Positions 6,733-63,221 of a stretch of 64,000 bases of DNA are shown one piece after another. Position 1 is the stretch's first letter; every line of letters begins with the position of its first letter. The notes below the pieces were generated by a model. That model did no database searches. It worked only from the letters and a program-made list of their open reading frames with translations, and was not told where the DNA came from. The translations under genes and the position numbers were made by a program. Origin of the DNA: an uncultured Alphaproteobacteria bacterium (GTDB lineage: Bacteria > Pseudomonadota > Alphaproteobacteria > Rs-D84); NCBI GenBank assembly GCA_949878575.1, contig CATLAX010000001.1:202752-266751 (forward strand). Direction: 5' to 3'.

Positions 6733-8745
6733 ATGAAATACGAAGTTCAAATATCAAAGCTGGCGATTGTTTGTGTGTTGTGTACGTCGGCTGTGTCCGG
6801 TGCGTTTGCGGCGGCCTCTGTGCGGTCGCTGGGTGGTGCCGGCACGTATTCCGGAACGTCGTCCGCGGCAAATGCGACCGGTGCGCCCAGCAAGGCTATA
6901 AACGCCGTGCGTGCGGGGTCCATGCGCGTGTCGCCGTCGGGCACGTCCGCGAACCGGGCGCCGGCGGGGGGCACGACAACAACCGGGCGTGTTGCAACGT
7001 CACCGCGTTTGTCTATCGGAAAATATTTGGGGGGCGGCACATCGGTCAGCGGTGGCAGTTCCATTAAAAATCAAAAGCCCGGCAGCGGGACGTCAATCAG
7101 CAACGGGGGGAATTCGTCTGTTGATCCCGGCGTGATGAGTGAGCTGGAAGGGCGCGTATCCCATTTAGAAAACAATGTTTATGAACAGCAGGAAATAGAT
7201 TCCCTGTTAAGTGAAAAGCAGGGGGTGTTGTCCGGGGATGAATTCATTATGGTAGAAGATGACCAGATAATGCTAAATGTTGACAAACTGCAGGAAAATT
7301 TGGATGCGGTTGTCGGCAAAGACGGCAAGCAGGTTGTTATTGGGACTAATAAAGACTATATCCTGTGGCAGTATGAGGGTGACGGCGACAAGTGGAACAC
7401 GCTGGTTGCGCTGGAAGATTTGCGCGGTCCGCAGGGATTGCAAGGTCTGCAGGGTGAACAGGGGTTGCAGGGGCCCGCAGGTCCGCAGGGGCCGGCCGGT
7501 GAAAAGGGTGAAAAGGGTGAAAAGGGTGACAAAGGTGACCCGGGCGAGGGCGTGGATACCAGCAAATATTCCACGACCGAGCAGATGAATGAGAAAATTG
7601 CTCTTGCGATTGCTAATGCAAATTATGTCACGCCGGAAGAGATGAACGAGGCATTGGCCGGCAAACTTGATTCAACGGCACTGGCGGGTTATGCAACACA
7701 GTCTTATGTTGAAACCAGTGTGTCAAACGCCACTGAAAACCTGGCGTCTAAGGATGATATTCCGGTTGTTCCGACAAAGGTCAGCGCATTTGAAAACGAT
7801 GCGGGCTATCTGACACAGCATCAGTCGTTGGAAAATCTGGCGACCAAGGCGGAACTGGCGGGCAAGGCGAATGTGGCCGATGTGTACACCAAGACAGATG
7901 TGGATACAAAAATTAAGGATGTTGTTGCCGGCGACATGAGCGATGCTTTAAAAGAATATGCGAAAACGTCTGATGTTACAACAGCGCTGGCGGGCAAGGC
8001 CGATACGTCTGTAACGGACGGTCTGAACACGCGCTTAACCGCGGCAGAGGGTGAAATTTCCGAGATTAACGATTTGGCGACTGATGCGGCCACGGCTGCG
8101 GCCGATGCCTTGACGGCGGCCGGCAATGCCCAGACGACGGCGAATTCTGCGGCCACGACCGCAGAAGGGGCGGCGTCACTGGCCACAACTGCGAAAACTG
8201 CGGCGGATTCTGCCAAAACTGCGGCTGATGCGGCCACAGCGACGGCAAATTCTGCAACCAGTGTTGCGAATGCGGCCAAAACTGCGGCGGACAATGCTGT
8301 GGCCGGGTTGGCGGACAAAGCGGACAAGGCGGATGTTTATAATAAAACCGAATCCGATGACCGCTTTGCGGCAAAGGGCGGCGTTTACACTAAAGCAGAG
8401 GTTGACAAGAAAATTGAGGATGCCGGCATTGGCGATATTAATTTAGAGGAATATGCCAAAACGGATTACGTAAATACGGAACTGGCCAAAAAAGCCGATG
8501 CGTCCGCGCTGGGCTCGTATGCAAAAACGGCGGATTTGGGGGCGTTGGCCACAAAAGACAAAATTGAAGATGCGGATGTTGCGGATGGCGCGGCAATCGC
8601 AAAATCAAAACTGGCCACAGATGTGCAAACATCTTTGACCAGGGCGGACCAAGCGGTAACAGCACAGGATGCTCCACCTGAGGGCGACTATGTTCTGGCG
8701 GTCAGCAATGGTAAAAAGGAATGGTTCCAGGTGGTTGTAGAATAG
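6733..8745 (+). CDS. secreted fibrous protein F1: basic low-complexity N-region, collagen-like G-X-Y tract, Ala/Thr-rich tail-fibre-like shaft
   Basis: Signal peptide ...[10 protein letters not shown]|AA. Contains 14 G-X-Y triplets. Shaft repeats include [26 protein letters not shown]. Shares [21 protein letters not shown] and YSTTEQMN with F3. Confidence 0.85.
7426..7551 (+). repeat. collagen-like triple-helix tract (14 uninterrupted G-X-Y triplets) containing a 3x tandem 9-bp unit
   Basis: [42 protein letters not shown]. The unit gaaaagggt is repeated exactly at 7501-7527. Confidence 0.9.
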
Positions 8746-18076: not shown

Positions 18077-18499
18077 ATGAAAAAATTTAACATTATCCAA
18101 AAATGGAACGAATTCAAATCCAACTGCATGGAATATAGAAAGCTGCGCAAGGCGTGTCGTCTGGCCGGTGACAAATGCATTGAACTGAAGCTGGCCATAA
18201 CAAGTTTTTATGATTGTGGTGAAAAGAAAAAAAATCTGCGCTGTATTAGAAATGAATTTATGGACATGCCCTATATCTCTCATTTGAAAGATACCGGGGT
18301 GCGGGATTTGGTGCCGTTGATGGTTGTGTCATATTGTCCTGATTATAGGGTTAAGAAAGAAGAGGACTACGGGGTGTGCAATAACACAGAATGCCCCTGG
18401 CACAGACAGAATTCCGAATACAACGATGCATGCCGTGAATACAGGCGCATGGAGGAAGTGCGGCGCAGATTCTGGGAACGCGGTGGTCGTACAAAATAA
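18077..18499 (+). CDS. hypothetical cytoplasmic Cys-containing protein, possibly cargo of an integrase-associated relic
   Basis: 140-aa ORF 12 nt after lepA. No signal peptide and no motif I recognise. Confidence 0.45.
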   Translation: MKKFNIIQKWNEFKSNCMEYRKLRKACRLAGDKCIELKLAITSFYDCGEKKKNLRCIRNEFMDMPYISHLKDTGVRDLVPLMVVSYCPDYRVKKEEDYGVCNNTECPWHRQNSEYNDACREYRRMEEVRRRFWERGGRTK

Positions 18500-45231: not shown

Positions 45232-45558
45232 TTATTCGTTGCAGCCACAGCGCGGTCTTGTTATTTCGCGGCGGGTTGTGTATGTGCCGACAGGAATGTA
45301 TTCAACAACCGGCTGATACATCTGATAATGCTCAATAACCTCTGTATGGGTTTTTATTGCAACAGCCGGGGCCGCACATGGGCGACGACCAACAATCACG
45401 CGACGGGCCGATGTGCGCGGGGCGCGTGCGTATTCGGCCGTACCATAATATTTGTTGCTTTCGTAACGCTGGGTTTCCATGTAAACGCCGCCGTCTGACG
45501 CATTCGCGCCAAAGCAGGCAAATATCGCTGTTAAGCTGACAAACAGTATTTTTTTCAT
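45232..45558 (-). CDS. small secreted hypothetical protein
   Basis: Signal peptide MKKILFVSLTAIFACFGANA|SD. 108 aa, ending RPRCGCNE. Flanked by its own hairpin terminator (45203-45233). Confidence 0.55.
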   Translation of the reverse strand: MKKILFVSLTAIFACFGANASDGGVYMETQRYESNKYYGTAEYARAPRTSARRVIVGRRPCAAPAVAIKTHTEVIEHYQMYQPVVEYIPVGTYTTRREITRPRCGCNE

Positions 45559-45627
45559 TTTATTCCTCGTTATGGTTACAAGAAATATAGTACAAATTAT
45601 GTAAATGTCAACAATAGAATTCCTCCC

Positions 45628-45656
45628 TTGACAAAAAAGTGTAATGGGTATAGGAT
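45628..45656 (+). promoter_or_regulatory. candidate sigma70 promoter of the 45689 orphan gene
   Basis: TTGACA, 17 nt, TAGGAT. AGGAG lies 8 nt before the ATG at 45689. Confidence 0.45.
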
Positions 45657-45688
45657 TTCCCCGCTAATATTATGCAGGAGATAAAAGT

Positions 45689-46294
45689 ATGCCAAGAAAA
45701 AATAGCGACCGGCAGGTTAATGTTGATGGGGTGGAATATACGCTTTCTCGGCGGGATTATGATTTGCTTTATGATATTTTGACACGTGCGCGCATATTAA
45801 AAAATGAGAAATTAACCGAAACACGTGCAAAACGTCTGTTGGCGGATTTGTATCCGAACGTGTTGTATTACAATCATGACACCGGCATGTGGAATCGCAG
45901 AGTATATAACGGATATGATATAGAATGGCAGGATGTCGCCACAAAGTTTTCCAAAGACTTGAAAGCCGTACTTGAAAGGGTTCCTGTTTTTGGAAATTTT
46001 TATGAGCTGGTCGCTAATATTATCATAACGGTTGATGGTGACGTTTTTTCCGGAAACGGCAGGTGGGTGGATAATGTAAGGTACAGTCCAAATGGCGCGG
46101 GCGTGCTGGGGAACATGATTGTTAGAAATAAAAAATACAAGAATCTGGAGCTGTGGAACAAATCATCATGGCTCGGGGTGGACATATACGCCGGGGCGCG
46201 TGATGCGGTATGCTGTGGCGCGGCCGGTTTCGCGGTTGACGGCGCCAGCGTTGCCAGATTTCAGGAAGCGCTGTTGGCGGCACGCAATAGATAG
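45689..46294 (+). CDS. hypothetical protein (201 aa) inserted between rpsK and rpoA
   Basis: Good RBS (AGGAG) and its own promoter-like site. No signal peptide and no recognisable motif. Confidence 0.55.
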   Translation: MPRKNSDRQVNVDGVEYTLSRRDYDLLYDILTRARILKNEKLTETRAKRLLADLYPNVLYYNHDTGMWNRRVYNGYDIEWQDVATKFSKDLKAVLERVPVFGNFYELVANIIITVDGDVFSGNGRWVDNVRYSPNGAGVLGNMIVRNKKYKNLELWNKSSWLGVDIYAGARDAVCCGAAGFAVDGASVARFQEALLAARNR

Positions 46295-48261: not shown

Positions 48262-48468
48262 ATGGCACTGTTGGCCCGTGTGTGTTTGCAATTAGTATTT
48301 ATTGTGCATGCAGTTTGGAATATTATACCTGTTGATATTGCAGGGCGGATGCCAAAGCAGGGCGGTCCTTGTCATTGGAATTTTTTCTTTATTCCGGATT
48401 GCCATGTCTGCGCGGTGCGTTAAGTTGCAATGACAGCGAAGACACGTTCGCACGCGACATGGGGGCGA

Positions 48469-51459
48469 TTAAAATTGTGTGTCACTGCATTCTTCGGTTG
48501 ATTCCGCCCACTGTTTACATTTTGGCATGCCGAACAGGGGATAAGACTGTTTTATGCATTTTGTTGATTTTACGCATTTGTGACAGTTTAACGAATCCCA
48601 GTTAAAACTGGTGTCAATTACCTGCTTGTAATTCCACTGGTCTAACTCGTGATGTCCCGTCAGTTCGCGTTGTGCGGCTGATGTTCCGCCTTTGCTATGG
48701 TCGGCGGTGGCCTGGGCAATGGTTCCGCCAACCAGTGCCGCGGCACCGACACCGGCAGCTGCAACGGTTGCAATGCCTGTTGCCGTAAGGGCAGAACCTG
48801 CCGCGAATATAGATGCAGCAGTGGTTGTAGTTATTGTTGCAGTTGATGTTATGGTGGCTGCTGGTATTGTTATAGCAACCCCAGTGATTGCGGGCATTTC
48901 TGCTGTCAAAGATATTGTAGTGGTAGCTGCAGCTGTTGCCAATGGGGCTCCTGTTCCAAGGGTTAACACGGTTACAGCAACAGAGGCGGCGACAACGACT
49001 CCGACAACCAGCCACATTCCCCAGCCGCTGGGTGGCGGCGGCGACATGGGCAGGGATGCCGCATCAGCCAAGCTGACACATGATATTCGTGCTGCCTCAC
49101 GCCGAACATCCTTGGCATTTTCTCCTTTTATTTTCGCTTGGCGCTCGGCCATGGTTATGTAATCTTTCATTTGTTGATTATATGCAATATCATATTTTTT
49201 ATAATAATTTGCTTTGGCGGCATTAAGTGCAGATGTGGCGATAATATTACGCATTTGTTTGGTAAGCTCTGGGAAACGTGCAATCTTTTCTCCGCTGACC
49301 GGAGCGTCTTTCATTCCCTGAACTCTGCGCCCGGTCATACAGAATTGTACAGTTGGATCTGATTCAATGGCTGCTACCGCGGTATTGATTTGAGATTTTA
49401 ATTTTGTTATTTCTCGGGCGACTTTTTCTTTTGTGGACGGTTGCATTTTGGATGCATCAATTGATTTAAAATATTCTTCGGCGCTGGGAATATTGCCGTT
49501 GACGTCTATGTTTAACTGCTCCCAAAACATGATGCCGTCAATTACAGACACGAATGGCACAACAGGTCCCAGCTCACCTGTGGTTGAACCCGGTACACGA
49601 CCCAATTCAATATCTTGGATTTGATCAATGCTGGTGCGACATTGTGAATAGTCAATTTCAGCGTTATCGCCATTAATTTTATAATAACAAATACCATAGC
49701 TTAGACTACCTGTACCTATATGGTCGTCTGTTGCTATGGCGTTACAGTTTTCTGTATCGCCGCAGACCTTAATCATGGCTTCATCGGCGGCGTTCTGGCA
49801 GAATTCCATCATATTATTATCAATACCGAGCATGATACCCTGTACCATTCGGTCCAGTTCGTCGTACACCGCATCGCCGCGTATGTCCTTGCCTTCTTTC
49901 TGATACACCTGCTGGCAACCGGTTAGTTTGTCATACGGGCACATGCGGATGATGGTATCCGTATCCAGTCCGACGCACTGTGTGTAATCCTTGCCACAGC
50001 GGTCGTCAGACTGCAGACACTGTTTTACCTCATTGGTGCAGCTGTCAACACGCATGGACGCCAGGCGGGCGTAAACATAGTCCATGATAAGTGGTTCTGC
50101 GGCCTCGCACGGGTCTATTTGAACCTTGCACAAAGAACGCACTGTTTCGGGCCGCGACAGGCACATGTCGTATGAGCCGTCAGGATCGTTAGGATCCATG
50201 GTGTCCTTGCACGCTTTTTGGAAACATGCGGATATGTTGGATATGCAGGATGTTCTTAAATCGGATTCCGCCAAGAGTTCCGCAGTTTTGATTTGCGGTG
50301 CAACCTCACGCAAAAAAGTGTCCCAGACCTGGTCTTTGACGGCGACGCAGGAATTGGTAATGCTCATGCACATGGGCTTTTTTGATTCCAGAGCATCATA
50401 AGAGGAAGCGGCGATGGAGATTTTGGTTGCGCTGCCCTTAATGTCGTACATTTTCATTTTGGATTTTGCGCCGACGGACTGTTTTGCGTTTTCAGCGGCG
50501 GCAATACCGACACAACCCTTGAAATCGTCACCGCATCCGGCCGTTGTTGCCATGCACTTTTTAAATTCCACCGTGCACTGGCCCAAATCGTACTTGTTCG
50601 CCGTCCGCAGCTGCTCGTACGCGGATGTGCGCATTGCGCGCTGGGCCTCTGATAAACGTGTTTCCGCCGTGCGGCGCTGTTCTTTGATGGCGTTTTCATA
50701 TGCGGCGCAGTCCCCGCGAATTTTCCCGTTATATATTGTGCGCAGCATTGTTTCAGATTGCTTGCATTCCGGCATGCGTTCCATGCATATTGCAATTGCG
50801 CTGCCATAAAGTTCTTCACCGGTTTTATTTTTTTCATCACTGTTATCGGATGTGTCAGTATCCGTTTGCTGGTTCCACAGTGCCGTGTCTATTTTTTTAC
50901 GGGTCGTGCTGGGGGCGGATAGATTTGAAATGGAGACACCTGTTTCTATGGCCTCAACGCCGACAGTCGCCAATGAATAGCTTTGCTGGTCCAGTTTTTC
51001 TATTTCCGCCAATACAGCATCCAGTTCGGCGTTTCTGTTACTGCATAAACAGCGGCCGCCGTTGACATTTTCCATCATGCAAAAAGCGTCCAGGCATCCG
51101 TTGAATTTTTCCTGACAGTTGTCGGCAACAACAGTGTTTTGGCCGGCGGCGGCGACTTTTGTTCCCGTGCCGATAACCTTTTGTGTTGCGCCCGCGCGGG
51201 CCGCGACGGTGTTTGCGGTGCCACTGTTTGCCGGGGTGCCGCGTTGAACGGTTGTGCGTCCGGCGGTTGCACTGCGCACTGCGGATGGCGCGCCCGTCAC
51301 GGGTGCGGTTCGTGTGGCACTGCGTGCAGATACGGATTTTGTGCCCGCCACCGGCGCCGCGGTACCCGCGCCGCCGCCCCGCCGCTGTTGCGGCGTGGCG
51401 GAAAAGCCTTGCAAGGTAAATAATGTAATGGAAACAGCAACGGCTATATATTTGTGCAT
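48469..51459 (-). CDS. large secreted cysteine-rich protein, paralog A (CRP-A), with a C-terminal hydrophobic A/T/G/V-rich insert
   Basis: 996-aa ORF. Signal peptide MHKYIAVAVSITLFTLQGFS|AT. Basic R/S/A/T/G low-complexity region. Many spaced Cys residues (CQEKFNGCLDAFCMMENVNGGRCLCSNRNAELD...). Conserved C-terminus ...ECSDTQF. Unknown family. Confidence 0.8.
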   Translation of the reverse strand: MHKYIAVAVSITLFTLQGFSATPQQRRGGGAGTAAPVAGTKSVSARSATRTAPVTGAPSAVRSATAGRTTVQRGTPANSGTANTVAARAGATQKVIGTGTKVAAAGQNTVVADNCQEKFNGCLDAFCMMENVNGGRCLCSNRNAELDAVLAEIEKLDQQSYSLATVGVEAIETGVSISNLSAPSTTRKKIDTALWNQQTDTDTSDNSDEKNKTGEELYGSAIAICMERMPECKQSETMLRTIYNGKIRGDCAAYENAIKEQRRTAETRLSEAQRAMRTSAYEQLRTANKYDLGQCTVEFKKCMATTAGCGDDFKGCVGIAAAENAKQSVGAKSKMKMYDIKGSATKISIAASSYDALESKKPMCMSITNSCVAVKDQVWDTFLREVAPQIKTAELLAESDLRTSCISNISACFQKACKDTMDPNDPDGSYDMCLSRPETVRSLCKVQIDPCEAAEPLIMDYVYARLASMRVDSCTNEVKQCLQSDDRCGKDYTQCVGLDTDTIIRMCPYDKLTGCQQVYQKEGKDIRGDAVYDELDRMVQGIMLGIDNNMMEFCQNAADEAMIKVCGDTENCNAIATDDHIGTGSLSYGICYYKINGDNAEIDYSQCRTSIDQIQDIELGRVPGSTTGELGPVVPFVSVIDGIMFWEQLNIDVNGNIPSAEEYFKSIDASKMQPSTKEKVAREITKLKSQINTAVAAIESDPTVQFCMTGRRVQGMKDAPVSGEKIARFPELTKQMRNIIATSALNAAKANYYKKYDIAYNQQMKDYITMAERQAKIKGENAKDVRREAARISCVSLADAASLPMSPPPPSGWGMWLVVGVVVAASVAVTVLTLGTGAPLATAAATTTISLTAEMPAITGVAITIPAATITSTATITTTTAASIFAAGSALTATGIATVAAAGVGAAALVGGTIAQATADHSKGGTSAAQRELTGHHELDQWNYKQVIDTSFNWDSLNCHKCVKSTKCIKQSYPLFGMPKCKQWAESTEECSDTQF
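49907..50616 (-). repeat. near-identical tract shared with CRP-B (copy 1)
   Basis: Matches 52538-53247 at a constant offset of 2631 bp. I saw only two mismatches (49927, 49954). The flanks are clearly diverged. Reverse-frame ORFs 50126-50401 and 52757-53032 are identical. Confidence 0.9.
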
Positions 51460-51471
51460 TTTGTATCCTGG

Positions 51472-54198
51472 CTAAAATTGTATGTCGTTACATGTTTCGT
51501 GTTCTTCGCCCCATGTTCTGCAGTTTTTGCCTTTCATCTTAGAGCAGGGCTGTTTACGTATGCATCTGTGGCAAACCAGTGTTTCCCAGTTAAACGTTGA
51601 TGTCACGTTTTCTTTGTAGCTGCGCGTATTGGTGGTTGAGTATCCGATTAATATTTTATTTTCGTTGTCGGTGTTTTTATCCCATCCTTTGGATGACACG
51701 TTAATAGATGTTTTTCCGTAATTTACGCATGCCTGGCGCGCAATTTCACGACGTGCGTCCAGTTCGTTGTCGGCGCTGGCCTGGGCAACGCGTTCGGCCA
51801 GGGCAATCATGTCTTTGGAAATATTTTTGTCTATTTCGTCATATTTCTTGTAATAGTTCTCTTTTGCGGCCGCAATTGCGCCTGCGGCAACAATCATGCG
51901 CATTTGAGCGGTTAATTGCGGGAATCGTGCAATGTCGTTGCGGCCGAATGTGTCAACTGTGCGACCGTCTGTTCCGGTTCTGCGCATTCCCTGGACCTGG
52001 CGGCCGGTCATGCAGTACTGAACGGTCGGGTCTGTTTCAATGGCCTGGATTGCCATGTTGATGCTGTTGGTTACGACGGCCAGCTCAGATTTTAGCTTGT
52101 TTTTTTCTTCCTCTGTTATATTGGGGGAAAATTTGGAAATTGCCTCGTCTATGTTTGTAATTTTGCCGTTTTCGTCAAAATCCAGCATTTCCCATGCAAT
52201 CTGACCATCAACCTTGGCGCCGAATAGTTTTACGGCGTTGTTGTTGCGTCCCAGCGATGTATCCGGTATTTGCGCGGTGTTTGTATAACATCTGCTGGTT
52301 GGCTGATTGTTTTCATATTCACAAATCTTGTAATCCAGGCTGCGGGAACCGATGTTGTCGTCCACGGCCAGTCCGTTACAGTTTTCTGTATCGCCGCAGA
52401 CCTTAATCATGGCTTCATCGGCGGCATTCTGGCAATATTGCATCATATTGTTGTCAATGCCAAGCATGATGCCCTGAATCATTTCTGAAATATTGTCATA
52501 AACATTATTTCCTTTGATGTCATCTTCTTTGCCGTAGACCTGCTGGCAACCGGTTAGCTTGTCATACGGGCACATGCGGATGATTGTATCCGTATCCAGT
52601 CCGACGCACTGTGTGTAATCCTTGCCACAGCGGTCGTCAGACTGCAGACACTGTTTTACCTCATTGGTGCAGCTGTCAACACGCATGGACGCCAGGCGGG
52701 CGTAAACATAGTCCATGATAAGTGGTTCTGCGGCCTCGCACGGGTCTATTTGAACCTTGCACAAAGAACGCACTGTTTCGGGCCGCGACAGGCACATGTC
52801 GTATGAGCCGTCAGGATCGTTAGGATCCATGGTGTCCTTGCACGCTTTTTGGAAACATGCGGATATGTTGGATATGCAGGATGTTCTTAAATCGGATTCC
52901 GCCAAGAGTTCCGCAGTTTTGATTTGCGGTGCAACCTCACGCAAAAAAGTGTCCCAGACCTGGTCTTTGACGGCGACGCAGGAATTGGTAATGCTCATGC
53001 ACATGGGCTTTTTTGATTCCAGAGCATCATAAGAGGAAGCGGCGATGGAGATTTTGGTTGCGCTGCCCTTAATGTCGTACATTTTCATTTTGGATTTTGC
53101 GCCGACGGACTGTTTTGCGTTTTCAGCGGCGGCAATACCGACACAACCCTTGAAATCGTCACCGCATCCGGCCGTTGTTGCCATGCACTTTTTAAATTCC
53201 ACCGTGCACTGGCCCAAATCGTACTTGTTCGCCGTCCGCAGCTGCTCTAATGCGGCGTCGCGCAGAGCCTTTTCTGCGGCGGATAATTTTTGCTGGCTGG
53301 CATTTCTTTGCTGTTTAAGGCTGTTTTCATATGCCGTGCAATCGGATTTTATACGCTGGCTGTACATCATTTGCAACATTGACATTTCGCCGCCGCATTC
53401 CGGTATTTGGGCGGCACATATTTCCGCCGCCGCACGATGCAGTGCGTCGCCTTCTTTGCCTTCTATGGGGTCGTTTGAGCTGTCAAATATATTGTCATCA
53501 CTATCATCCGTAAATACGGCGGTTGTGTCCCACAGTGACATATCCAGTTTGCGGCGGGTTGTCTTTTTGTCTTCATCCTTGCCGTTTATTACAGATTGTG
53601 CAACAGCGTTTGCATTTGCGATGGCCTGTTCGGCATCCGTGCCCATTTCTATTTTTTCAACGCCGACGGTTGCCATTTGATAGCTTTGCTGGTCCAGTTT
53701 TTCTATTTCCGCCAATACAGCATCCAGTTCGGCGTTTCTGTTACTGCATATGCAGCGACCGCCGCTGGCGTTGTCTATCATGCAGAAAGAATCCATACAG
53801 CCGTCGTATTTTTGTTGGCACGCTTCGCTGACGACCACATTTTTTGCGGCGGCTGTGACTTTTGTTCCAGTGCCTATAACCTTTTGTGTCGCGCCCGCGC
53901 GTGCCGCGACGGTTGCGCTGCGTGCTGCTACGCTGGTGGTGTTCCCGGTGGCGGCGGGGGCGCCGCGCTGAACGGTTGTGCGTCCGGCGGTTGCACTGCG
54001 CGCCGCGGACGAGTTGCCCGCCACAGGTGCGGTTCGTGTGGCACTGCGTGCAGATACAGCACTGCGTGCCGATACGGCGGTATTATCGCCGCTGCCGGCA
54101 TTTGTCGTGACGCCGCCGCGCCGCTGCTGTGGCGCCGCCCCAAAAGCATTGGAAAGTATTCCAGATAACACAAGAACGCAAACAGTCAGTTTTTGCAT
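51472..54198 (-). CDS. large secreted cysteine-rich protein, paralog B (CRP-B)
   Basis: The ATG at 54198 follows AAGGGA. Signal peptide MQKLTVCVLVLSGILSNAFG|AA. ARSA-repeat basic region. Same Cys scaffold as CRP-A. C-terminus ...ETCNDIQF. Its stop is 12 nt before the CRP-A start. Confidence 0.8.
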   Translation of the reverse strand: MQKLTVCVLVLSGILSNAFGAAPQQRRGGVTTNAGSGDNTAVSARSAVSARSATRTAPVAGNSSAARSATAGRTTVQRGAPAATGNTTSVAARSATVAARAGATQKVIGTGTKVTAAAKNVVVSEACQQKYDGCMDSFCMIDNASGGRCICSNRNAELDAVLAEIEKLDQQSYQMATVGVEKIEMGTDAEQAIANANAVAQSVINGKDEDKKTTRRKLDMSLWDTTAVFTDDSDDNIFDSSNDPIEGKEGDALHRAAAEICAAQIPECGGEMSMLQMMYSQRIKSDCTAYENSLKQQRNASQQKLSAAEKALRDAALEQLRTANKYDLGQCTVEFKKCMATTAGCGDDFKGCVGIAAAENAKQSVGAKSKMKMYDIKGSATKISIAASSYDALESKKPMCMSITNSCVAVKDQVWDTFLREVAPQIKTAELLAESDLRTSCISNISACFQKACKDTMDPNDPDGSYDMCLSRPETVRSLCKVQIDPCEAAEPLIMDYVYARLASMRVDSCTNEVKQCLQSDDRCGKDYTQCVGLDTDTIIRMCPYDKLTGCQQVYGKEDDIKGNNVYDNISEMIQGIMLGIDNNMMQYCQNAADEAMIKVCGDTENCNGLAVDDNIGSRSLDYKICEYENNQPTSRCYTNTAQIPDTSLGRNNNAVKLFGAKVDGQIAWEMLDFDENGKITNIDEAISKFSPNITEEEKNKLKSELAVVTNSINMAIQAIETDPTVQYCMTGRQVQGMRRTGTDGRTVDTFGRNDIARFPQLTAQMRMIVAAGAIAAAKENYYKKYDEIDKNISKDMIALAERVAQASADNELDARREIARQACVNYGKTSINVSSKGWDKNTDNENKILIGYSTTNTRSYKENVTSTFNWETLVCHRCIRKQPCSKMKGKNCRTWGEEHETCNDIQF
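52538..53247 (-). repeat. near-identical tract shared with CRP-A (copy 2)
   Basis: See 49907-50616. Confidence 0.9.
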
Positions 54199-54394
54199 AA
54201 AATATCCCTTCAACATTCATTTGATTTTATCATATTTTCATGCTTTTTAAAAATTGTTTTTTTCTTATTATTACAGTATGTGACAAATAAATCAGTTGGC
54301 TGATGCTTTGTGTAAAAAAACGGGGCAACGGCTCCGATTTTTGTAGACGTTTGTCTGGGGATGAAAGAAAACAGTGCTTATACTCTGCCGGGAC

Positions 54395-55453
54395 TTAATC
54401 GGCCAGGGCGCCCAGGTCCGTAATTACGCGCACGCCGTCTGATTCCCAGGCGGCAATGCGTTCTTCTAAATCCATTATGTTTGTTGCGCCCAGGTATAGT
54501 ACGGGGCTTAAGTTTAATTCCGCGGCGCGCGCCCGTACTGCGGCAACCGGACTGGGGCATGTGCGGCCGGTGGCAAACCATGTTTCGTCATCGGCAATCC
54601 AAAAGTCCGTGTCAACATGTGCGGCTATTATAACATCGTCAGATATTATGAATTCCCCGTCGGTGTTTGCGTTTCGGCCCATTGCGACAAGTGTGCCGAT
54701 TAAGTCATTGTTTGTGGATGTCTGTTGTGGCGGCGGCGGTGTTTCGGAATCTTTTCCTGTGGCAGGTTGTTCCGGTACAGGCTTGTCATCCGTGGTGTCA
54801 AAGCTGATTTCTGTGAATTCCGGCATGGCGGATAAAGGCGTGGCGAAATCTGATGCGCCGTCGGTATCAAAGTCTGTCGGCAGGGGGAAATCTGAAGCAT
54901 TTTCCTCTATCGTGCGCATGTCGTCAGCCGGGGCGGGTTCTGGTTTTGTGACCGCAGACACGTCAAACGCGGATATTGCGTGGCGTATACTGTCGCCGCG
55001 GCGTATGCGGATAAATGCCTGGCGCAGTTCTGTGGGCATTTCCGGGGGCAGGGGTGGTTCGACCGCAGGCTTTGTCTCGGGGGCGGGGGGCTCGGGCTGC
55101 GCGGGTGGTACCGGTGCCGGCGCCGGTGTCGGCGGCGGTGGGACAAATGCACGTTTTATAATGTTGGGCATGGAAATGGAAAACAGAAATTTTTTGTTGC
55201 GCATTATAACCGTGGTTGTTGCAATGTACATCGGAATGGCGGCAAGAATTAAAATTCCGAATACAAATCCGCCAAATCCGTGCAGATGCGACGATGCCAG
55301 CTTTGTCCATGCCGCGATGGAAAACATGTTGAAATTAAACAGCCATGTCAATATTGCCCACATTATGCATACATAGCATGCTGTCCATGTTATGGCATAA
55401 AAATGGCTCTTGATAAAATCTCTGATTGATTTCATGTGATGAATTATGGACAA
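54395..55453 (-). CDS. hypothetical membrane protein: N-terminal TM bundle, proline-rich linker, acidic C-terminal domain
   Basis: TM segments AITWTACYVCIMWAILTWLF and GGFVFGILILAAIPMYIATTTVI. Linker PPPPTPAPAPVPPAQPEPPAPETKPAVEPPLPPEMP. No family recognised. Confidence 0.65.
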   Translation of the reverse strand: MSIIHHMKSIRDFIKSHFYAITWTACYVCIMWAILTWLFNFNMFSIAAWTKLASSHLHGFGGFVFGILILAAIPMYIATTTVIMRNKKFLFSISMPNIIKRAFVPPPPTPAPAPVPPAQPEPPAPETKPAVEPPLPPEMPTELRQAFIRIRRGDSIRHAISAFDVSAVTKPEPAPADDMRTIEENASDFPLPTDFDTDGASDFATPLSAMPEFTEISFDTTDDKPVPEQPATGKDSETPPPPQQTSTNNDLIGTLVAMGRNANTDGEFIISDDVIIAAHVDTDFWIADDETWFATGRTCPSPVAAVRARAAELNLSPVLYLGATNIMDLEERIAAWESDGVRVITDLGALAD

Positions 55454-55551: not shown

Positions 55552-57831
55552 ATGCGGTGTTTGCTGAAAGTGTTTGGTGTATCATTTGTTGCCGCGGGCA
55601 TATTCGGGGGGGCTTGTTCCGTGCATGCCGCGGATTCTGTGGGGCGTGGGTATAACAATCCGGCCTATCAAAACCGCGCAGGCATGACCGGGTCGCAGCG
55701 TATGCCGACAATGCCGACGCTGTCTATAAATACTGTTGGAAATTTGTCGCCGAATTTACCGTCTGACGGCGGCTTAAACGGGGGCAATACAAATCCGGAA
55801 ACAAAATGCCCGCCAGAGGCAACAGGGGTGTATCCTGATTGCGAATGCCCTGAGGGAAAAATATACAATAAGCAGACCAATACCTGTGATGCGTGTGAAT
55901 ATGCCGGCCAGATTGTCGTGGACGGCAAGTGTGTGTGTCCGGACGGCACGCACGAAGATGCGGATACAAAATCATGTGTTAAGGATTCAGAGTGTCCCGA
56001 CGGTGGTGTGAAAAATTCCGATTATACTGTTACAGACTGTATGACGGATATATATGCATGTGTAAACAACGGCGGACTGCCCAATGGTATTAACGACTTG
56101 TTTAACGAAGACCTGCGTCACAGCATTGAAAACGGAATGGCGCTGTGCAGTGTTCAGGTTGAAAAGTGCGTCACGGAAATTCGTCGCGATTGTAAAAACA
56201 TTTACCGTTCCGCCGCGGATGTGTGGATTGATTTCAATGCCCGCCGGGTGCAGCCGGAATATTACAATTATGTGCTGCGTAAAACGGGCTTGACACCGAA
56301 CCAGGCGGAAAATACATGCCTGTTGCTGGATAGAAACACATACGGCCCGTCGTTTGCGGCGGTTGCAAATAACGGGTCCACGACCGCGGAATACAATAAT
56401 CGCGTGGGGGCCTTTAACAGCCAGCAGGGTAATGTTTTAATCAAGAAAAATCCGCAGGGGGTAAAGGTAAATTCCGGCCATGCCGGCGTTGACGGCGCAC
56501 GCGGTCATTATGCGCGATGGGATGCGGCGACGGCGGATTGCTATCTGCGCGTTGCGGCATATAACAAGGATAACCAGATTAAAAACAGCTGGCTGTTCGG
56601 GGCGGCCGGAAACGACCAACCGGCCGAGGCCTGGAAGGCCGCAGGTGACACCTTTACCTGTAACAAGGATCTGTTTGGCTTTTCTTTGATGAACGATACC
56701 AGCACGGCGGCCGTTGTCGGAATTGGCGGCGGAACACTGGTTGGGGCCGGTGTCGGCGCATTGGCGGGACATGGTGCGCGCGAATTTGACTGTACAAACG
56801 ACGGACATCGCAAAAAACTGGCCGAACAGTTGCGCAAGGCCGGCCAGGTGGCCATCTTGAACGAATACCTGATGATCCCGGTACTGGACGGTACAAGTGA
56901 TATAAGTCTGTCCCAGTGCCGTGAAATTGCCGACCTGTATCAGACTTATATCCAAATAATTGCGGCAATCGGCGAATGTGAAACCGCCGCCGGCGACGCT
57001 GTTAAGGTGACAGGGGCAACATCCTCCAAGGTAAGTATCAAGTGTCAATTTAGCGGAAATATTGCAAATGCAAGTGTTGAGCAAAAGAAAAAAGTATATG
57101 ATGAATGTTTTAAAAAATCCGGTAATTCCACTGTGGCCAAACACTGTGTCGGACGCGGCTTTACATCCGAAAAGGAATGTGCGGATTATTTGGTAAAAAA
57201 TAATCTGTTGCCGAATGTGGACAGCATGATAAAAGAGATAGAAAATGCTGATAACAGCAAGTGCAGCTTTAAACCGTTGAATTTGGCGATGGCCTCCGGC
57301 GGCAGCATATACTGCAATGAAAAATCCGGATGTGTCACGCCGGCGGAAATGCGTCGCCAGGTTGCGCGTCTGGGCGGGGTGTTCGGCAATCTGCAGATTT
57401 TGGCGGGTGAAAAAAACAACCGCGCGAAAACGACGCTGATCGGCGCCGGTGTTGGTGCGGGGGCAGGTGGAATTGCAACCGGCATCACGGCATTGATAGA
57501 ACACAACAATATTAACTGCCGCGTGGGTGACGGTTTGGCAAAGGTCGGATACGGCAAATCACACTCCATAGGGTCGCTGAAAGATTTCTATGTAAAATGG
57601 AATCTGCAGCTGCCGGATACGGTTGCGCCGACAGGGCTGGCCAACGACTGCAATTCTTGGCGTGCATTGTGCGGTGCGTTGACGGATGAACGTTCATGCA
57701 ACGCCGCCCAGATAAATTATCGCGGGCCAGAGGACAAGACCATAACGCTTATCCGGTCGGCATGCAAAATGTCTGGCAGTCGGTGTATAGAAAATTATTC
57801 CGTTGCAAAATCGTACGGCGCATGTGAATAA
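55552..57831 (+). CDS. large secreted cysteine-rich protein C (CRP-C) with two glycine-zipper-like segments
   Basis: Signal peptide ...GGACSVHA|AD. CPPEATGVYPDCECPEGKIYNKQTNTCDACEYAGQIVVDGKCVCPDGTHEDADTKSC. Glycine-zipper-like AAVVGIGGGTLVGAGVGALAGHG and LIGAGVGAGAGGIATGITAL. Confidence 0.8.
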   Translation: MRCLLKVFGVSFVAAGIFGGACSVHAADSVGRGYNNPAYQNRAGMTGSQRMPTMPTLSINTVGNLSPNLPSDGGLNGGNTNPETKCPPEATGVYPDCECPEGKIYNKQTNTCDACEYAGQIVVDGKCVCPDGTHEDADTKSCVKDSECPDGGVKNSDYTVTDCMTDIYACVNNGGLPNGINDLFNEDLRHSIENGMALCSVQVEKCVTEIRRDCKNIYRSAADVWIDFNARRVQPEYYNYVLRKTGLTPNQAENTCLLLDRNTYGPSFAAVANNGSTTAEYNNRVGAFNSQQGNVLIKKNPQGVKVNSGHAGVDGARGHYARWDAATADCYLRVAAYNKDNQIKNSWLFGAAGNDQPAEAWKAAGDTFTCNKDLFGFSLMNDTSTAAVVGIGGGTLVGAGVGALAGHGAREFDCTNDGHRKKLAEQLRKAGQVAILNEYLMIPVLDGTSDISLSQCREIADLYQTYIQIIAAIGECETAAGDAVKVTGATSSKVSIKCQFSGNIANASVEQKKKVYDECFKKSGNSTVAKHCVGRGFTSEKECADYLVKNNLLPNVDSMIKEIENADNSKCSFKPLNLAMASGGSIYCNEKSGCVTPAEMRRQVARLGGVFGNLQILAGEKNNRAKTTLIGAGVGAGAGGIATGITALIEHNNINCRVGDGLAKVGYGKSHSIGSLKDFYVKWNLQLPDTVAPTGLANDCNSWRALCGALTDERSCNAAQINYRGPEDKTITLIRSACKMSGSRCIENYSVAKSYGACE

Positions 57832-62564: not shown

Positions 62565-63221
62565 TTACCAGTCACTCTGATAGCATGCCGGTGAATACTT
62601 AAAACTGCCGGTTCCGTCACTGCCGGTCGTGCCAGATGGAATATAGCATTTTGCTATGGTGGAATTATTATTTACAGCTGACGTTGTAGTCTCACCGTTG
62701 GGGCCGCTGGGACATTTTGTGCATCCGGATGTTCCGTTAGAGGTTGTGCCGTAATACCCGGCCGCGCATTTATATGTTGTTGATGATTTGCATGTTGCAA
62801 CACCGGTACTGCAACTACAATATCTGTTAATATCTTTTAAATACCCTGTTCCGTTTGTCACATTGTATTGTGGCTCACAATTGCTGCATATGCATTCACA
62901 GTTGCGGCATGTTATATTTGAACATGATGTACTAATATTCGTCATTGTATATCCCGCCGGACAAGAAACACAGTCTTGCTTGTAATATGTTTTACCTCCA
63001 CTTGTATAACATGTCTTGCTGCTTAGGGTACACTCTGCATAAACGGCACATAGCGCAAATTCATTCACCGTGTTTCCACTTGGACATGTTGTTGAGGAAC
63101 ATGAACCAGCGACCGGCTGCAGCTCCCCCAGATTTCCTGGATCAATGACTGCCGTGGTCGCAAATGCTGGCAACTGCAGCAATGCTATTGCGGTTATTAC
63201 AAACAATGACTGTATTTTCAT
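62565..63221 (-). CDS. secreted cysteine-rich protein D with CxxCPxG(Y) furin/ephrin-receptor-like repeats
   Basis: Signal peptide MKIQSLFVITAIALLQLPAFA|TT. CVSCPAGYT, CAAGYYGTTSNGTSGCTKCPSGPNG, CRNCECICSNCEP. Confidence 0.75.
   Translation of the reverse strand: MKIQSLFVITAIALLQLPAFATTAVIDPGNLGELQPVAGSCSSTTCPSGNTVNEFALCAVYAECTLSSKTCYTSGGKTYYKQDCVSCPAGYTMTNISTSCSNITCRNCECICSNCEPQYNVTNGTGYLKDINRYCSCSTGVATCKSSTTYKCAAGYYGTTSNGTSGCTKCPSGPNGETTTSAVNNNSTIAKCYIPSGTTGSDGTGSFKYSPACYQSDW

What the first reader, a model, noticed from the sequence alone, without database searches (positions are those of the whole stretch)
48469..54198. Tandem pair of ~900-1000-aa secreted cysteine-rich proteins of no recognisable family
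Two adjacent minus-strand genes, CRP-B (51472-54198) and then CRP-A (48469-51459), are separated by 12 nt. They encode paralogs with the same architecture:
- a signal peptide
- an Arg-rich low-complexity leader
- a long region studded with regularly conserved Cys residues interleaved with predicted helical stretches, for example C(Q)(E/Q)K(F/Y)(N/D)GC(L/M)D(A/S)FCM(M/I)(E/D)N..GGRC(L/I)CSNRNAELDAVLAEIEKLDQQSY
- a conserved Cys-rich C-terminus ending FNW(D/E)(S/T)L.CH(K/R)C...C(S/N)D(T/I)QF

The terminal Phe resembles the BAM beta-signal position, but the proteins do not look like beta-barrels. I cannot assign them to any family from memory.

Large disulfide-rich envelope proteins are rare in proteobacteria. 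The best-known analogues are the cross-linked cysteine-rich envelope proteins of chlamydial infectious forms. Hypothesis: these form a disulfide-cross-linked surface or periplasmic lattice, or act as a secreted effector/toxin pair.
Basis: partly seen in the sequence, partly recalled or inferred. Interest (0 to 1): 0.8.

Follow-up and report, generated by a model that had tools for sequence, protein, structure and literature searches.

The report
Disulfide-stapled helical envelope protein pair
Two neighbouring genes of an uncultured, genome-reduced gut alphaproteobacterium (Candidatus Enterousia / order Rs-D84) encode exported, mostly helical proteins of about 900-1000 residues, braced by some 19 internal disulfide bonds, that belong to a large, uncharacterised, lineage-restricted family with no detectable relative or fold match among known proteins.

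Summary
Two minus-strand genes sit 12 nt apart: CRP-A (48469-51459, 996 aa) and CRP-B (51472-54198, 908 aa). They are 63% identical paralogs, each with a signal peptide, an Ala/Thr/Gly/Arg leader, 38 Cys in the mature protein and a C-terminal Phe.

- **No known family.** Pfam, NCBIfam, PDB sequence profiles and Foldseek on a confident AlphaFold model (pLDDT 78.7) all returned nothing significant. One distant paralog carries an automatic "TraN" label in UniRef; that label failed every test I ran.
- **Distribution.** The family has at least 908 clusters at 50% identity. Every hit that could be placed comes from Rs-D84/Enterousia gut MAGs with genomes of 0.75-1.0 Mb. A genome can hold several paralogs.
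- **Cys are disulfide pairs.** In divergent homologs they are lost two at a time, and their positions fit nested ladders across helical hairpins (CX6C spacing: 11 observed against about 1.5 expected). A related genome encodes a DsbA-family protein.
- **Two forms.** CRP-A carries a hydrophobic Gly/Ala-rich hairpin that CRP-B lacks. The order "free B, then anchored A" recurs in 12 of 15 multi-copy loci, and gene conversion homogenises the core.
- **Context.** The locus is syntenic: rpoA, rplQ, CRP, a membrane protein, then a second Cys-rich protein.

Most likely these are a periplasm-facing, membrane-anchored structural scaffold or tether. That role is inferred. An intermolecular lattice or a toxin role has no support.

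The parts
51472..54198 (-). CRP-B gene: 908 aa, 38 Cys in the mature protein, no membrane anchor ('B-type'). An alternative upstream ATG lies at 54216.
   Evidence: ORF. SD GAAGGGA lies upstream of 54198. More than 1000 homologs. AlphaFold model pLDDT 78.7.
48469..51459 (-). CRP-A gene: 996 aa, 38 Cys, with a C-proximal hydrophobic hairpin ('A-type').
   Evidence: ORF. 63% identical to CRP-B. The exact protein is carried by 13 contigs in public assemblies.
51460..51471 (-). 12-nt spacer between CRP-B and CRP-A containing AGGA. It implies co-transcription in the order B then A.
   Evidence: Sequence. The B-then-A order recurs in 12 of 15 multi-copy loci.
54136..54198 (-). CRP-B signal peptide (MQKLTVCVLVLSGILSNAFGA|AP), Sec/SPase I type. 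The Cys at position 7 is not conserved, so this is not a lipobox.
   Evidence: Read from the sequence. Only 7 of 49 homologs have Cys in that alignment column.
51397..51459 (-). CRP-A signal peptide (MHKYIAVAVSITLFTLQGFSA|TP).
   Evidence: Read from the sequence.
53824..54135 (-). CRP-B leader of about 100 aa, Ala/Thr/Val/Gly/Ser/Arg-rich and predicted disordered. It ends in the near-invariant linear motif VAARAG-TQKVIGTGTKV..A..N.VV just before the first Cys.
   Evidence: Composition. pLDDT below 50 for residues 17-118. Motif conservation.
53137..53214 (-). First copy of the internal 4-Cys repeat C-x6-C-x6-C-x6-C in CRP-B (aa 329-354). The same motif lies at 50506-50583 in CRP-A.
   Evidence: hhalign of segment against segment: 92.5%, E 5e-7. 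Coordinates.
52600..52677 (-). Second copy of the 4-Cys repeat in CRP-B (aa 508-533). The same motif lies at 49969-50046 in CRP-A.
   Evidence: Cys517 is lost together with Cys543 in 6 of 6 cases.
52586..53247 (-). Gene-conversion tract, CRP-B copy: 662 nt exactly identical to 49955-50616 in CRP-A, within a block of about 700 nt at 98-100% identity flanked by 45-60% identity.
   Evidence: Similar tracts occur in L005 (1714 nt, 99.9%) and L024 (869 nt, 99.7%). Concerted evolution of the core.
49955..50616 (-). Gene-conversion tract, CRP-A copy.
48709..49029 (-). CRP-A hydrophobic Gly/Ala/Thr/Val-rich insertion (aa 811-917). It holds a strongly hydrophobic segment (WGMWLVVGVVVAASVAVTVLTLG, Kyte-Doolittle 2.49), further Ala/Thr/Ile-rich stretches and a glycine-zipper-like segment (GIATVAAAGVGAAALVGG). 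This is the putative membrane hairpin. It is absent from CRP-B.
   Evidence: Most family members have it, preceded by LPKSPNPPK..FGK. A/B typing of related loci.
48472..48636 (-). CRP-A C-terminal small beta-sheet Cys domain ending ...CSDTQF. The CRP-B equivalent is 51475-51624.
   Evidence: The AlphaFold model of CRP-B shows strands 850-907. Pairs 879+903 and 885+893 are lost together. Terminal Phe in 75 of 91 related ORFs.
54224..54251 (-). Promoter-like site (TTTAAA-16-TAAAAT with TG) upstream of CRP-B. A hairpin plus T7 at 54321-54336 would terminate the upstream gene, mem352.
   Evidence: These are consensus matches only.
54395..55453 (-). mem352: conserved neighbour, 352 aa. It has N-terminal transmembrane segments, a Pro-rich linker and a conserved C-terminal domain. 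No known family.
   Evidence: Found in 59 of 77 related loci. Always divergent from and adjacent to CRPC, 56 of 56 loci. No Pfam, NCBIfam or PDB hit.
55552..57831 (+). CRPC: a second, unrelated secreted Cys-rich protein (759 aa, 36 Cys) with two glycine-zipper-like segments. Conserved neighbour.
   Evidence: Not homologous to CRP-A/B (hhalign probability 2%). Weak glycine-zipper hits only.

Best explanation
CRP-B and CRP-A form a two-gene operon. They belong to a family restricted to the gut alphaproteobacterial order Rs-D84 (Candidatus Enterousia and relatives).

Both proteins are exported by Sec. Outside the cytoplasm they fold into elongated, mostly alpha-helical structures, rigidified by about 19 intramolecular disulfides. 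Many of these form nested ladders across antiparallel helix hairpins (CX6C on one helix paired with CX6C on the other). A DsbA-type oxidoreductase probably makes the bonds.

CRP-A is held in a membrane by a two-segment hydrophobic Gly/Ala-rich hairpin, most simply the inner membrane. That topology leaves both its large N-terminal rod and its small C-terminal disulfide-bonded beta domain on the periplasmic side. CRP-B is the same protein without the anchor.

I infer that the free and anchored forms work together as a structural scaffold or tether of the cell envelope, probably with the neighbouring membrane protein mem352 and the glycine-zipper protein CRPC. The conserved basic N-terminal linear motif would be the contact point for another envelope component.

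**Shown:** the genes, their paralogy, order-wide conservation, a helical fold with no known match, pairwise behaviour of the Cys, the anchored/free dichotomy, gene conversion and synteny.

**Inferred:** location, topology, complex formation and the structural role.
For: - **Real, conserved genes.** More than 1000 homologs. 908 clusters at 50% identity with E <= 1e-3. 322 confirmed stretches in species-representative genomes, all that could be placed being Enterousia or uncultured alphaproteobacterial gut MAGs.
- **Conserved Cys.** All 38 mature Cys are invariant in 49 homologs.
- **Disulfides, not metal sites.** Among 123 diverse homologs Cys disappear in pairs: 453+469 (6 of 6), 441+487 (5 of 5), 517+543 (6 of 6), 879+903 (over 50 sequences), 885+893 and 626+637. 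Position sums are equal within a hairpin (441+487 = 448+480 = 928; 510+551 and 517+543 differ by one), which fits nested antiparallel ladders.
- **CX6C spacing.** 11 observed against about 1.5 expected.
- **Oxidising machinery.** A DsbA-family gene lies near paralogs in Ca. Enterousia intestinigallinarum (L079 18741-19574).
- **Fold.** The AlphaFold model has pLDDT 78.7, with long helices (266-323, 408-455, 764-808) and a small C-terminal sheet.
- **Anchor.** Hydrophobic segments with Kyte-Doolittle values of 2.0-3.0 occur in A-type members only.
- **Same-side topology.** Disulfide-bonded domains lie on both sides of the hairpin, which requires an even number of membrane passes.
- **Pairing of forms.** B-then-A order in 12 of 15 multi-copy loci. 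In the N-terminal part B proteins from different genomes are more alike (0.64) than A and B of one genome (0.58), so the duplication is old. In the core, A and B of one genome are 0.80 identical against 0.64-0.67 between genomes, which indicates gene conversion.
- **Synteny.** rpsK, rpoA, rplQ, CRP, mem352, CRPC.
- **Diderm envelope.** OmpA-family, autotransporter and OMP beta-barrel genes are present in the lineage.
Against: - There is no experimental or expression data.
- Localisation is inferred from sequence alone. Glycine-zipper segments in known lipoproteins sit in the outer membrane, so the anchor could be there instead.
- I could not inspect model coordinates, so neither rod length nor Cys-Cys distances were measured.
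- Copy number, orientation and gene conversion vary between genomes. That pattern is more typical of surface-exposed, selected proteins than of a housekeeping scaffold.
- 24 loci show only a B-type gene and 36 only an A-type gene, so the pair is not obligatory, although some contigs are truncated.
- No DsbA was found within the 64-kb window itself.
Confidence: 0.45

Rival explanations
1. Cell-surface adhesin for attachment to a partner cell or host. This would work like F-plasmid TraN, a Cys-rich outer-membrane protein that stabilises cell-cell contact by binding outer-membrane proteins of the other cell.
For: [quoted passage not shown]
- The locus is dynamic: 1-3 copies, inversions and gene-conversion tracts.
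- The proteins evolve much faster than neighbouring housekeeping genes: 50-60% identity against 90-99%.
- One paralog is labelled TraN in UniRef.
- In TraN, too, all Cys could form intramolecular disulfides (PMC9246713).
Against: - There is no homology to TraN, and the predicted secondary structure is of a different class.
- No outer-membrane targeting feature is present: no lipobox, no beta-barrel, no autotransporter domain.
- No secretion-system genes are adjacent.
- The strongly hydrophobic segment of A-type members would be expected to stop transfer in the inner membrane.
- The Cys framework and much of the sequence are highly conserved, and no hypervariable 'tip' is evident.
Confidence: 0.22
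2. Intermolecularly disulfide-cross-linked envelope lattice, as in chlamydial OmcA/OmcB/MOMP.
For: - The proteins are large, Cys-rich and exported, in a genome-reduced, possibly host-dependent bacterium.
- Several paralogs, plus other Cys-rich secreted proteins, occur in the same genome.
Against: - The Cys count is even (38), and Cys are lost strictly in pairs with positions that fit intramolecular hairpin ladders.
- No conserved unpaired Cys is visible.
- There is no similarity to chlamydial Cys-rich proteins in Pfam.
- The lineage is reported to retain RodA, MreB and MrdA, so peptidoglycan is not replaced.
Confidence: 0.1
3. Secreted toxin or effector pair, for example an alpha-helical pore-former acting on host or competitor cells.
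For: - The proteins are long and helical, with a hydrophobic hairpin in one partner, superficially like two-component alpha-pore-forming toxins.
- Foldseek gave weak matches to SmhA and to apolipoprotein-like folds.
Against: - All structural matches are insignificant (E >= 0.08, TM about 0.1).
- The locus is core and syntenic beside rpoA and rplQ across the order, not on an island.
- There are no immunity or secretion genes nearby.
- Heavy disulfide stapling argues against the large conformational change pore-formers need.
Confidence: 0.05
4. The Cys are ligands for metals or Fe-S clusters, or are redox-active, making this a periplasmic metal-storage or redox protein.
For: - The Cys content is high in an anaerobic gut organism with no respiratory chain, where re-oxidation of a Dsb system is not obvious.
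Against: - Cys are lost in twos, not in sets of three or four.
- Only one CXXC-spaced pair occurs per protein (aa 876/879 in CRP-B), no conserved His partners are evident, and the dominant spacing is i,i+7 on helices.
- A DsbA-family gene is present in the lineage.
Confidence: 0.05

Closest known systems
F-type conjugation mating-pair stabilisation protein TraN (Pfam PF06986)
   Same: - A large Sec-exported envelope protein with more than 20 conserved Cys, all of which could form intramolecular disulfides (PMC9246713).
- It is the only functional label attached to any family member (UniRef100_A0A9D1JWE5).
- It is a possible functional analogue for cell-cell contact.
   Different: - No sequence or profile similarity: PF06986 hits 0 of 59 family members scanned; hhalign probability is 1.3%; tblastn against 72,556 plasmids found nothing.
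- TraN is mostly beta (a beta-sandwich 'tip'), whereas CRP is mostly alpha.
- There is no T4SS context, and the locus is chromosomal and core.
Chlamydial cysteine-rich envelope proteins (OmcB/OmcA)
   Same: - Cys-rich exported envelope proteins in a host-dependent bacterium with a reduced genome.
   Different: - No homology was detected.
- The chlamydial proteins act through intermolecular cross-links. Here the Cys behave as intramolecular pairs.
- The lineage keeps peptidoglycan elongation genes.
Twin CX9C / CX3C helix-hairpin proteins (CHCH domain, small Tims) of the mitochondrial intermembrane space
   Same: - The structural principle is the same: Cys spaced regularly on two antiparallel helices form nested disulfides (C1-C4, C2-C3) that staple a hairpin.
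- They fold in a compartment topologically equivalent to the alphaproteobacterial periplasm.
   Different: - Those proteins are small single hairpins of about 60-100 aa, oxidised by Mia40.
- The spacing here is CX6C, with up to three nested bonds per hairpin and many hairpins in a protein of 900-1000 aa.
- No homology. The comparison rests on my own knowledge of that family.
Helicobacter cysteine-rich proteins (Hcp) and Legionella EnhC/LpnE (Sel1-like repeats)
   Same: - Exported helical repeat proteins in which closely spaced Cys pairs bridge two helices of each repeat.
   Different: - No Sel1/TPR match in Pfam at E <= 10.
- Apart from the 28-aa 4-Cys motif that occurs twice, segment-by-segment profile comparison found no repeat.
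- The comparison rests on my own knowledge.
Glycine-zipper envelope proteins (Pfam Gly-zipper_Omp, YiaD/SlyB-type; Rickettsia 17-kDa antigen)
   Same: - The Gly/Ala-rich paired hydrophobic segments in CRP-A and in the neighbour CRPC resemble glycine-zipper membrane hairpins.
   Different: - Only sub-threshold hits (E 0.03-1.4).
- Those proteins are small lipoproteins. CRPs have no lipobox, and the first segment is far more hydrophobic.
Periplasm-spanning helical tethers (TolA domain II, Lpp)
   Same: - The proposed mode of action is similar: a membrane-anchored, elongated helical protein reaching across the periplasm.
- The neighbour mem352 has a TonB/TolA-like layout (transmembrane segments, Pro-rich linker, C-terminal domain).
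   Different: - No homology, and those proteins are not disulfide-rich.
- The analogy is inference only.

Membership tests
TraN (F-type T4SS mating-pair stabilisation, PF06986 / TIGR02750) | Sequence match to the TraN profile | tested here: not met
   PF06986 scores F TraN at 1e-79. It matches none of 49 CRP members at E <= 10 and none of 8 distant members. Neither window protein matched it either, though that scan was limited to E <= 1. NCBIfam gave no hit.
TraN (F-type T4SS mating-pair stabilisation, PF06986 / TIGR02750) | Profile-profile homology to F-like TraN proteins | tested here: not met
   hhalign of F TraN against the 123-sequence CRP profile: probability 1.3%. A 5-sequence TraN profile against the same CRP profile: probability 1.3%, 29 columns aligned. 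tblastn of P0359 against plasmids found no match.
TraN (F-type T4SS mating-pair stabilisation, PF06986 / TIGR02750) | Beta-rich N-terminal domain with a beta-sandwich tip | tested here: not met
   The CRP-B model is predominantly long alpha-helices. The TraN description comes from PMC9246713.
TraN (F-type T4SS mating-pair stabilisation, PF06986 / TIGR02750) | Encoded within an F-type tra/trb conjugation gene cluster | tested here: not met
   In the window the neighbours are rpoA, rplQ, mem352, CRPC, a CcrM-like methylase and nrdR. Around the paralog P0359 they are infA, OmpA-family, rpsF/rpsR/rplI, recO and dsbA.
Chlamydial cysteine-rich outer-membrane complex proteins (OmcB/OmcA) | Sequence match to the family | tested here: not met
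   No such Pfam family was hit at E <= 10 in 49 members or at E <= 1 in the window proteins.
Chlamydial cysteine-rich outer-membrane complex proteins (OmcB/OmcA) | Intermolecular disulfide cross-linking into a supramolecular shell | not testable with these tools
   Indirect evidence points the other way: an even Cys count and pairwise co-loss. Non-reducing gels of envelope fractions are needed.
Outer-membrane beta-barrel proteins (BAM substrates) | A membrane-spanning beta-barrel domain and a C-terminal beta-signal with alternating hydrophobic residues ending in an aromatic residue | tested here: not met
   Only about 55 residues of beta-sheet lie at the C-terminus. The tail C-[ST]-D-[TI]-Q-F lacks hydrophobic residues at -2 and -4 in both window proteins. 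Distant paralogs end in Met.
Sel1-like-repeat Cys-rich proteins (Hcp/EnhC) | Sel1/TPR-type repeats detectable by profile | tested here: not met
   No Sel1 or TPR family appears among the Pfam hits at E <= 10.
Glycine-zipper membrane-hairpin proteins (PF13488 / YiaD-type) | Profile match above threshold; lipoprotein signal | tested here: not met
   CRP-A and CRP-B gave no hit. Sub-threshold hits were seen only for CRPC (E 0.53 and 0.034) and for a paralog (E 1.4). There is no conserved lipobox.
Bacterial lipoproteins | Conserved lipobox Cys at the signal-peptide cleavage site | tested here: not met
   Only 7 of 49 homologs have Cys in the alignment column of the CRP-B signal-peptide Cys, and CRP-A has no Cys in its signal peptide.

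The most novel reading that the evidence does not exclude
These proteins, with their paralogs and the neighbours mem352 and CRPC, make up a previously unknown type of bacterial envelope apparatus. It would consist of rigid, disulfide-laddered helical rods anchored in the membrane, which set envelope architecture or form the physical contact structure through which these genome-reduced, transporter-poor gut alphaproteobacteria attach to a partner cell and draw on it. Tandem duplication, inversion and gene conversion would tune or vary the apparatus.
Probability: 0.2. Interest if true: 0.8.

Novelty: categorically new. Interest (0 to 1): 0.62.

Why it matters
Rs-D84/Enterousia bacteria are widespread in human, livestock and bird guts. 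Their genomes are about 0.75-1.0 Mb, they lack most biosynthesis and standard transporters, and they have never been cultured. How they interact with their surroundings is unknown.

One Enterousia genome region carries three paralogs of about 2-2.5 kb in a row, in addition to the CRP locus found beside rpoA in most related genomes. If a genome holds about five such genes, they take up roughly 1.5% of it. The genes sit in a conserved position, are maintained under strong structural constraint, and have no relative or fold match among known proteins. That makes them prime candidates for the envelope or contact machinery of the lineage.

The family also gives a clear bacterial example of helix hairpins stapled by ladders of disulfides, and the predicted bond map can be tested directly. 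The Cys co-loss analysis supplies concrete predictions for mass spectrometry.

Tried and rejected
- **Family libraries.** Pfam and NCBIfam scans of both proteins, their neighbours, 49 family members and 10 distant members returned only noise. The weak Ribosomal_S4 and EGF-like hits come from the Arg-rich leader and Cys spacing.
- **PDB sequence search.** Profiles for CRP, mem352 and CRPC found nothing.
- **Structure search.**
  - The first AlphaFold model, from a shallow alignment, was poor (pLDDT 61) and gave no Foldseek hits.
  - The second, from 123 diverse sequences, was good (pLDDT 78.7), but Foldseek still found nothing with E <= 1e-3 in PDB or BFVD. The best hit was Exo70 at E 0.084 and TM about 0.1, a generic helical rod.
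  - The C-terminal sheet matches small beta-meanders in methyltransferases over about 59 residues. I regard these as uninformative.
- **TraN lead.** It came from a UniRef name. I rejected it after Pfam, hhalign (single sequence and 5-sequence profile), tblastn against plasmids, gene context and a comparison of secondary-structure class.
- **CRPC and mem352 as remote homologs of CRP.** Rejected by hhalign.
- **More family members in the window.** hmmsearch found only the two genes.
- **DsbA in the window.** None was found.
- **Literature.** Searches for Enterousia, Rs-D84, CX6C and Cys-rich alphaproteobacterial envelope proteins found no description of the family.
- **Mis-assembly of the identical block.** Rejected: the identical CRP-A protein is carried by 13 contigs in public assemblies, and 9 of the places found share the same neighbouring genes.

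Full report
**1. The observation**

CRP-A runs 48469-51459 (996 aa). CRP-B runs 51472-54216, or 54198 if the second ATG is used (914 or 908 aa). The gap between them is 12 nt.

The 54198 start is preceded by GAAGGGA, and the CRP-A start by AGGA. A hairpin plus T-run ends the upstream gene at about 54321-54336. A promoter-like site lies at 54251-54224. The pair therefore looks like its own B-then-A transcription unit.

BLASTP gives 63% identity over 844 residues, plus a separately aligned C-terminal domain. Each mature protein has 38 Cys. Cys pairs at i,i+7 (CX6C) occur 11 times in each protein. In 2000 shuffles the mean was 1.4-1.65 and the maximum 6-7.

- CRP-A carries a hydrophobic Ala/Thr/Gly/Val insertion of about 105 residues (aa 811-917) that CRP-B lacks.
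- A block of about 700 nt, 662 nt of it exact, is identical between the genes, while the flanks are only 45-60% identical.
- The "Arg-rich" leader is mainly Ala/Thr/Gly/Val/Ser, with about 10% Arg.

**2. Organism and context**

The window is chromosomal. It carries secY, rpsM, rpsK, rpoA, rplQ, lepA, nrdR, a CcrM-like methylase and an SLT transglycosylase.

Homologs come from MAGs labelled Candidatus Enterousia, uncultured Alphaproteobacteria or uncultured Rickettsiales, from human and animal guts. GTDB places this group in order Rs-D84. Its genomes are 0.75-1.0 Mb, with no TCA cycle, no respiratory chain, little biosynthesis and no standard transporters. It has been proposed to depend on partner organisms (PMC12306168).

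The identical CRP-A protein is carried by 13 contigs in public assemblies. Two places were shown, and 8 more share the first one's neighbouring genes, so the arrangement is not an assembly artefact.

**3. Size and range of the family**

| Search | Result |
|---|---|
| 5.8-billion-protein collection | >1000 hits, none with a precomputed Pfam domain, all "hypothetical" |
| Exhaustive profile search, 1.84 billion representatives | 908 clusters at E <= 1e-3; 292 at E <= 1e-30 |
| GTDB species-representative genomes | 322 confirmed stretches |

Two contigs in the genome scan are labelled Bacteroides or Muribaculaceae. Of these, L005 (the Bacteroides-labelled contig) carries the same alphaproteobacterial neighbours, with rpoA about 95% identical, so it is evidently mis-binned.

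Genomes hold further, more distant paralogs (20-27% identical, 670-890 aa). Three of these lie in a row in Ca. Enterousia intestinigallinarum. The window itself holds only the two genes.

**4. No known family or fold**

- Pfam and NCBIfam gave nothing for the two proteins, for 49 family members, or for 10 distant members.
- PDB sequence profiles gave nothing.
- A first AlphaFold model from a shallow alignment was weak (pLDDT 61).
- A second model, from 123 diverse sequences, was good: pLDDT 78.7, pTM 0.54, and 393 residues at pLDDT 90 or above.

The good model shows a disordered leader (residues 17-118). After it comes a succession of long helices (149-184, 266-323, 408-455, 565-601, 696-721, 764-808). 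There is a small mixed region at 620-665, and a five-stranded sheet at 850-907.

Foldseek found nothing with E <= 1e-3 in PDB or BFVD. The best hit was Exo70 at E 0.084 and TM about 0.1, which is a generic helical rod.

**5. The TraN lead**

One distant paralog (P0359, UniRef100_A0A9D1JWE5) is named "IncF plasmid conjugative transfer protein TraN". I tested that label in six ways:
- PF06986 recognises F TraN at 1e-79 but none of the 59 family members scanned.
- hhalign of F TraN, alone or as a 5-sequence profile, against the CRP profile gives 1.3% probability.
- tblastn of P0359 against 72,556 plasmids finds nothing.
- NCBIfam TraN models do not hit.
- TraN is mostly beta with a beta-sandwich tip (PMC9246713), whereas CRP is mostly helical.
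- No tra genes flank any family member examined.

Membership is therefore rejected. TraN remains only a possible functional analogue: a Cys-rich envelope protein that stabilises cell-cell contact.

**6. What the cysteines do**

All 38 mature Cys are invariant across 49 homologs at 55-85% identity.

In the 123-sequence alignment, which reaches down to about 30% identity, the Cys that do vary are lost in pairs:

| Pair (CRP-B numbering) | Lost together |
|---|---|
| 453 + 469 | 6 of 6 cases |
| 441 + 487 | 5 of 5 cases |
| 517 + 543 | 6 of 6 cases |
| 879 + 903 | over 50 sequences |
| 885 + 893 | yes |
| 626 + 637 | yes |

Pairwise loss is what disulfide partners would show. Metal sites would be lost in sets of three or four.

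The positions also fit antiparallel helix hairpins. 441+487 and 448+480 both sum to 928, and 453+469 sums to 922. That implies three nested bonds across one hairpin. Likewise 510-551, 517-543 and 524-531 would form a second ladder.

A 28-residue motif, C-x6-C-x6-C-G-x-D-[FY]-x2-C, occurs twice (hhalign 92.5%).

The mature Cys count is even in both proteins. A DsbA-family gene lies a few kb from paralogs in a related genome (L079). None lies in this 64-kb window.

**7. Anchored and free forms**

Most family members have a characteristic segment between the last helical region and the C-terminal sheet domain. It consists of "LPKSPNPPK..FGK", then a strongly hydrophobic stretch (Kyte-Doolittle 2.0-3.0 over 19 residues), then a second Gly/Ala-rich hydrophobic stretch. 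CRP-A is of this type. CRP-B lacks the segment.

Both the N-terminal part and the C-terminal domain carry co-varying disulfide pairs, so both should lie outside the cytoplasm. That requires an even number of membrane passes, in other words a hairpin.

The hydrophobicity suggests the hairpin would stop transfer in the inner membrane. An outer-membrane glycine-zipper insertion cannot be excluded.

In related genomes with more than one copy, the order is B then A in 12 of 15 loci, as it is here.

| Region compared | Comparison | Mean identity |
|---|---|---|
| N-terminal part | B vs B, different genomes | 0.64 |
| N-terminal part | A vs B, same genome | 0.58 |
| Core (331-555) | A vs B, same genome | 0.80 |
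| Core (331-555) | between genomes | 0.64-0.67 |

The N-terminal figures show that the duplication is old. The core figures, together with near-identical tracts in this window, in L005 and in L024, show recurrent gene conversion.

**8. Neighbours**

Across 77 related loci the usual order is rpsK, a small secreted protein, rpoA, rplQ, CRP (1-3 copies), mem352, CRPC.
- mem352 has transmembrane segments, a Pro-rich linker and a conserved C-terminal domain.
- CRPC is 759 aa with 36 Cys and two glycine-zipper-like segments.
- mem352 and CRPC are divergent and adjacent in 56 of 56 loci.
- They lie in the same locus as CRP in 40 of 45 loci with enough flanking sequence.
- Neither is homologous to CRP or to anything known.

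In this window and its closest relatives the CRP block is inverted or rearranged compared with most loci.

**9. Interpretation**

- *Shown:* real, conserved, exported, helical, disulfide-paired proteins of a new family, with an anchored/free dichotomy and concerted evolution.
- *Inferred:* a periplasm-facing, membrane-anchored structural scaffold or tether, possibly acting with mem352 and CRPC. The conserved leader motif (VAARAG-TQKVIGTGTKV) would be a docking element.

I put this at about 0.45.

The main rival is a surface adhesin for partner contact, at about 0.22. It is favoured by the lineage's lifestyle and by the dynamic locus. It is weakened by the absence of any outer-membrane targeting feature or secretion system.

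| Rival | Estimate |
|---|---|
| Intermolecular lattice | about 0.1 |
| Toxin or effector pair | about 0.05 |
| Metal or redox protein | about 0.05 |

**10. Novelty and score**

No literature describes the family. It has no detectable sequence or structural relative.

The stapling principle resembles the twin-CXnC hairpins of the mitochondrial intermembrane space, and also the Helicobacter Hcp proteins. It does so without homology and on a much larger scale.

I rate the protein family and fold as categorically new. Its function is unproven. Interest is 0.62.

Noticed in passing
window 55552-57831 (+) and 54395-55453 (-): A second, unrelated secreted Cys-rich protein (759 aa, 36 Cys, two glycine-zipper-like segments, EGF-like Cys-rich N-terminus) lies next to a membrane protein with a Pro-rich linker. 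The two genes are divergent and adjacent in 56 of 56 related loci. Neither has a known family.
   Followed up: partly
window 62565-63221 (-): A 218-aa protein with a signal peptide and 21 Cys (9.6%), rich in Thr/Ser/Gly. No Pfam match. It is another small secreted Cys-rich protein in the same genome.
   Followed up: partly
window 6733-8745 (+): A 670-aa secreted protein with collagen-like GXY repeats (Pfam Collagen, 2.5e-7). Its Ala/Ser/Gly/Thr/Arg-rich leader after the signal peptide resembles the CRP leaders, which may point to a shared envelope-targeting or docking module.
   Followed up: no
window 45232-46294: Two lineage-specific genes lie between rpsK and rpoA in the ribosomal alpha operon: a 108-aa secreted protein on the minus strand, conserved in 43 of 77 loci, and a 201-aa ORF on the plus strand. 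No ORF large enough to be rpsD lies between them. Other long ORFs here are shadows of real genes.
   Followed up: partly
window 48300-54300, compared with L001, L010 and L034: The CRP block is inverted here relative to most related genomes, where CRP is on the same strand as rpoA and rplQ. Close relatives carry extra partial or inverted copies (for example L010, with copies on both strands). This suggests ongoing recombination among paralogs.
   Followed up: partly
L079 4717-12514 (Ca. Enterousia intestinigallinarum contig): A second cluster holds three distant family paralogs in a row (667, 724 and 837 aa). Within 10 kb of it lie an autotransporter, an OmpA-family gene and a DsbA-family gene. 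The 837-aa member is the one mislabelled TraN in UniRef.
   Followed up: yes
window 12588-14597 (+) and 18077-18499 (+): A 669-aa secreted protein with no Pfam match, and a 140-aa basic ORF with 9 Cys. Both are uncharacterised.
   Followed up: no
L005 (record labelled Bacteroides fragilis) and L077 (labelled Muribaculaceae): Both contigs carry the CRP locus, and L005 also shows the alphaproteobacterial neighbours, with rpoA about 95% identical to the window's. They are evidently mis-binned or mislabelled in the public genome records.
   Followed up: partly
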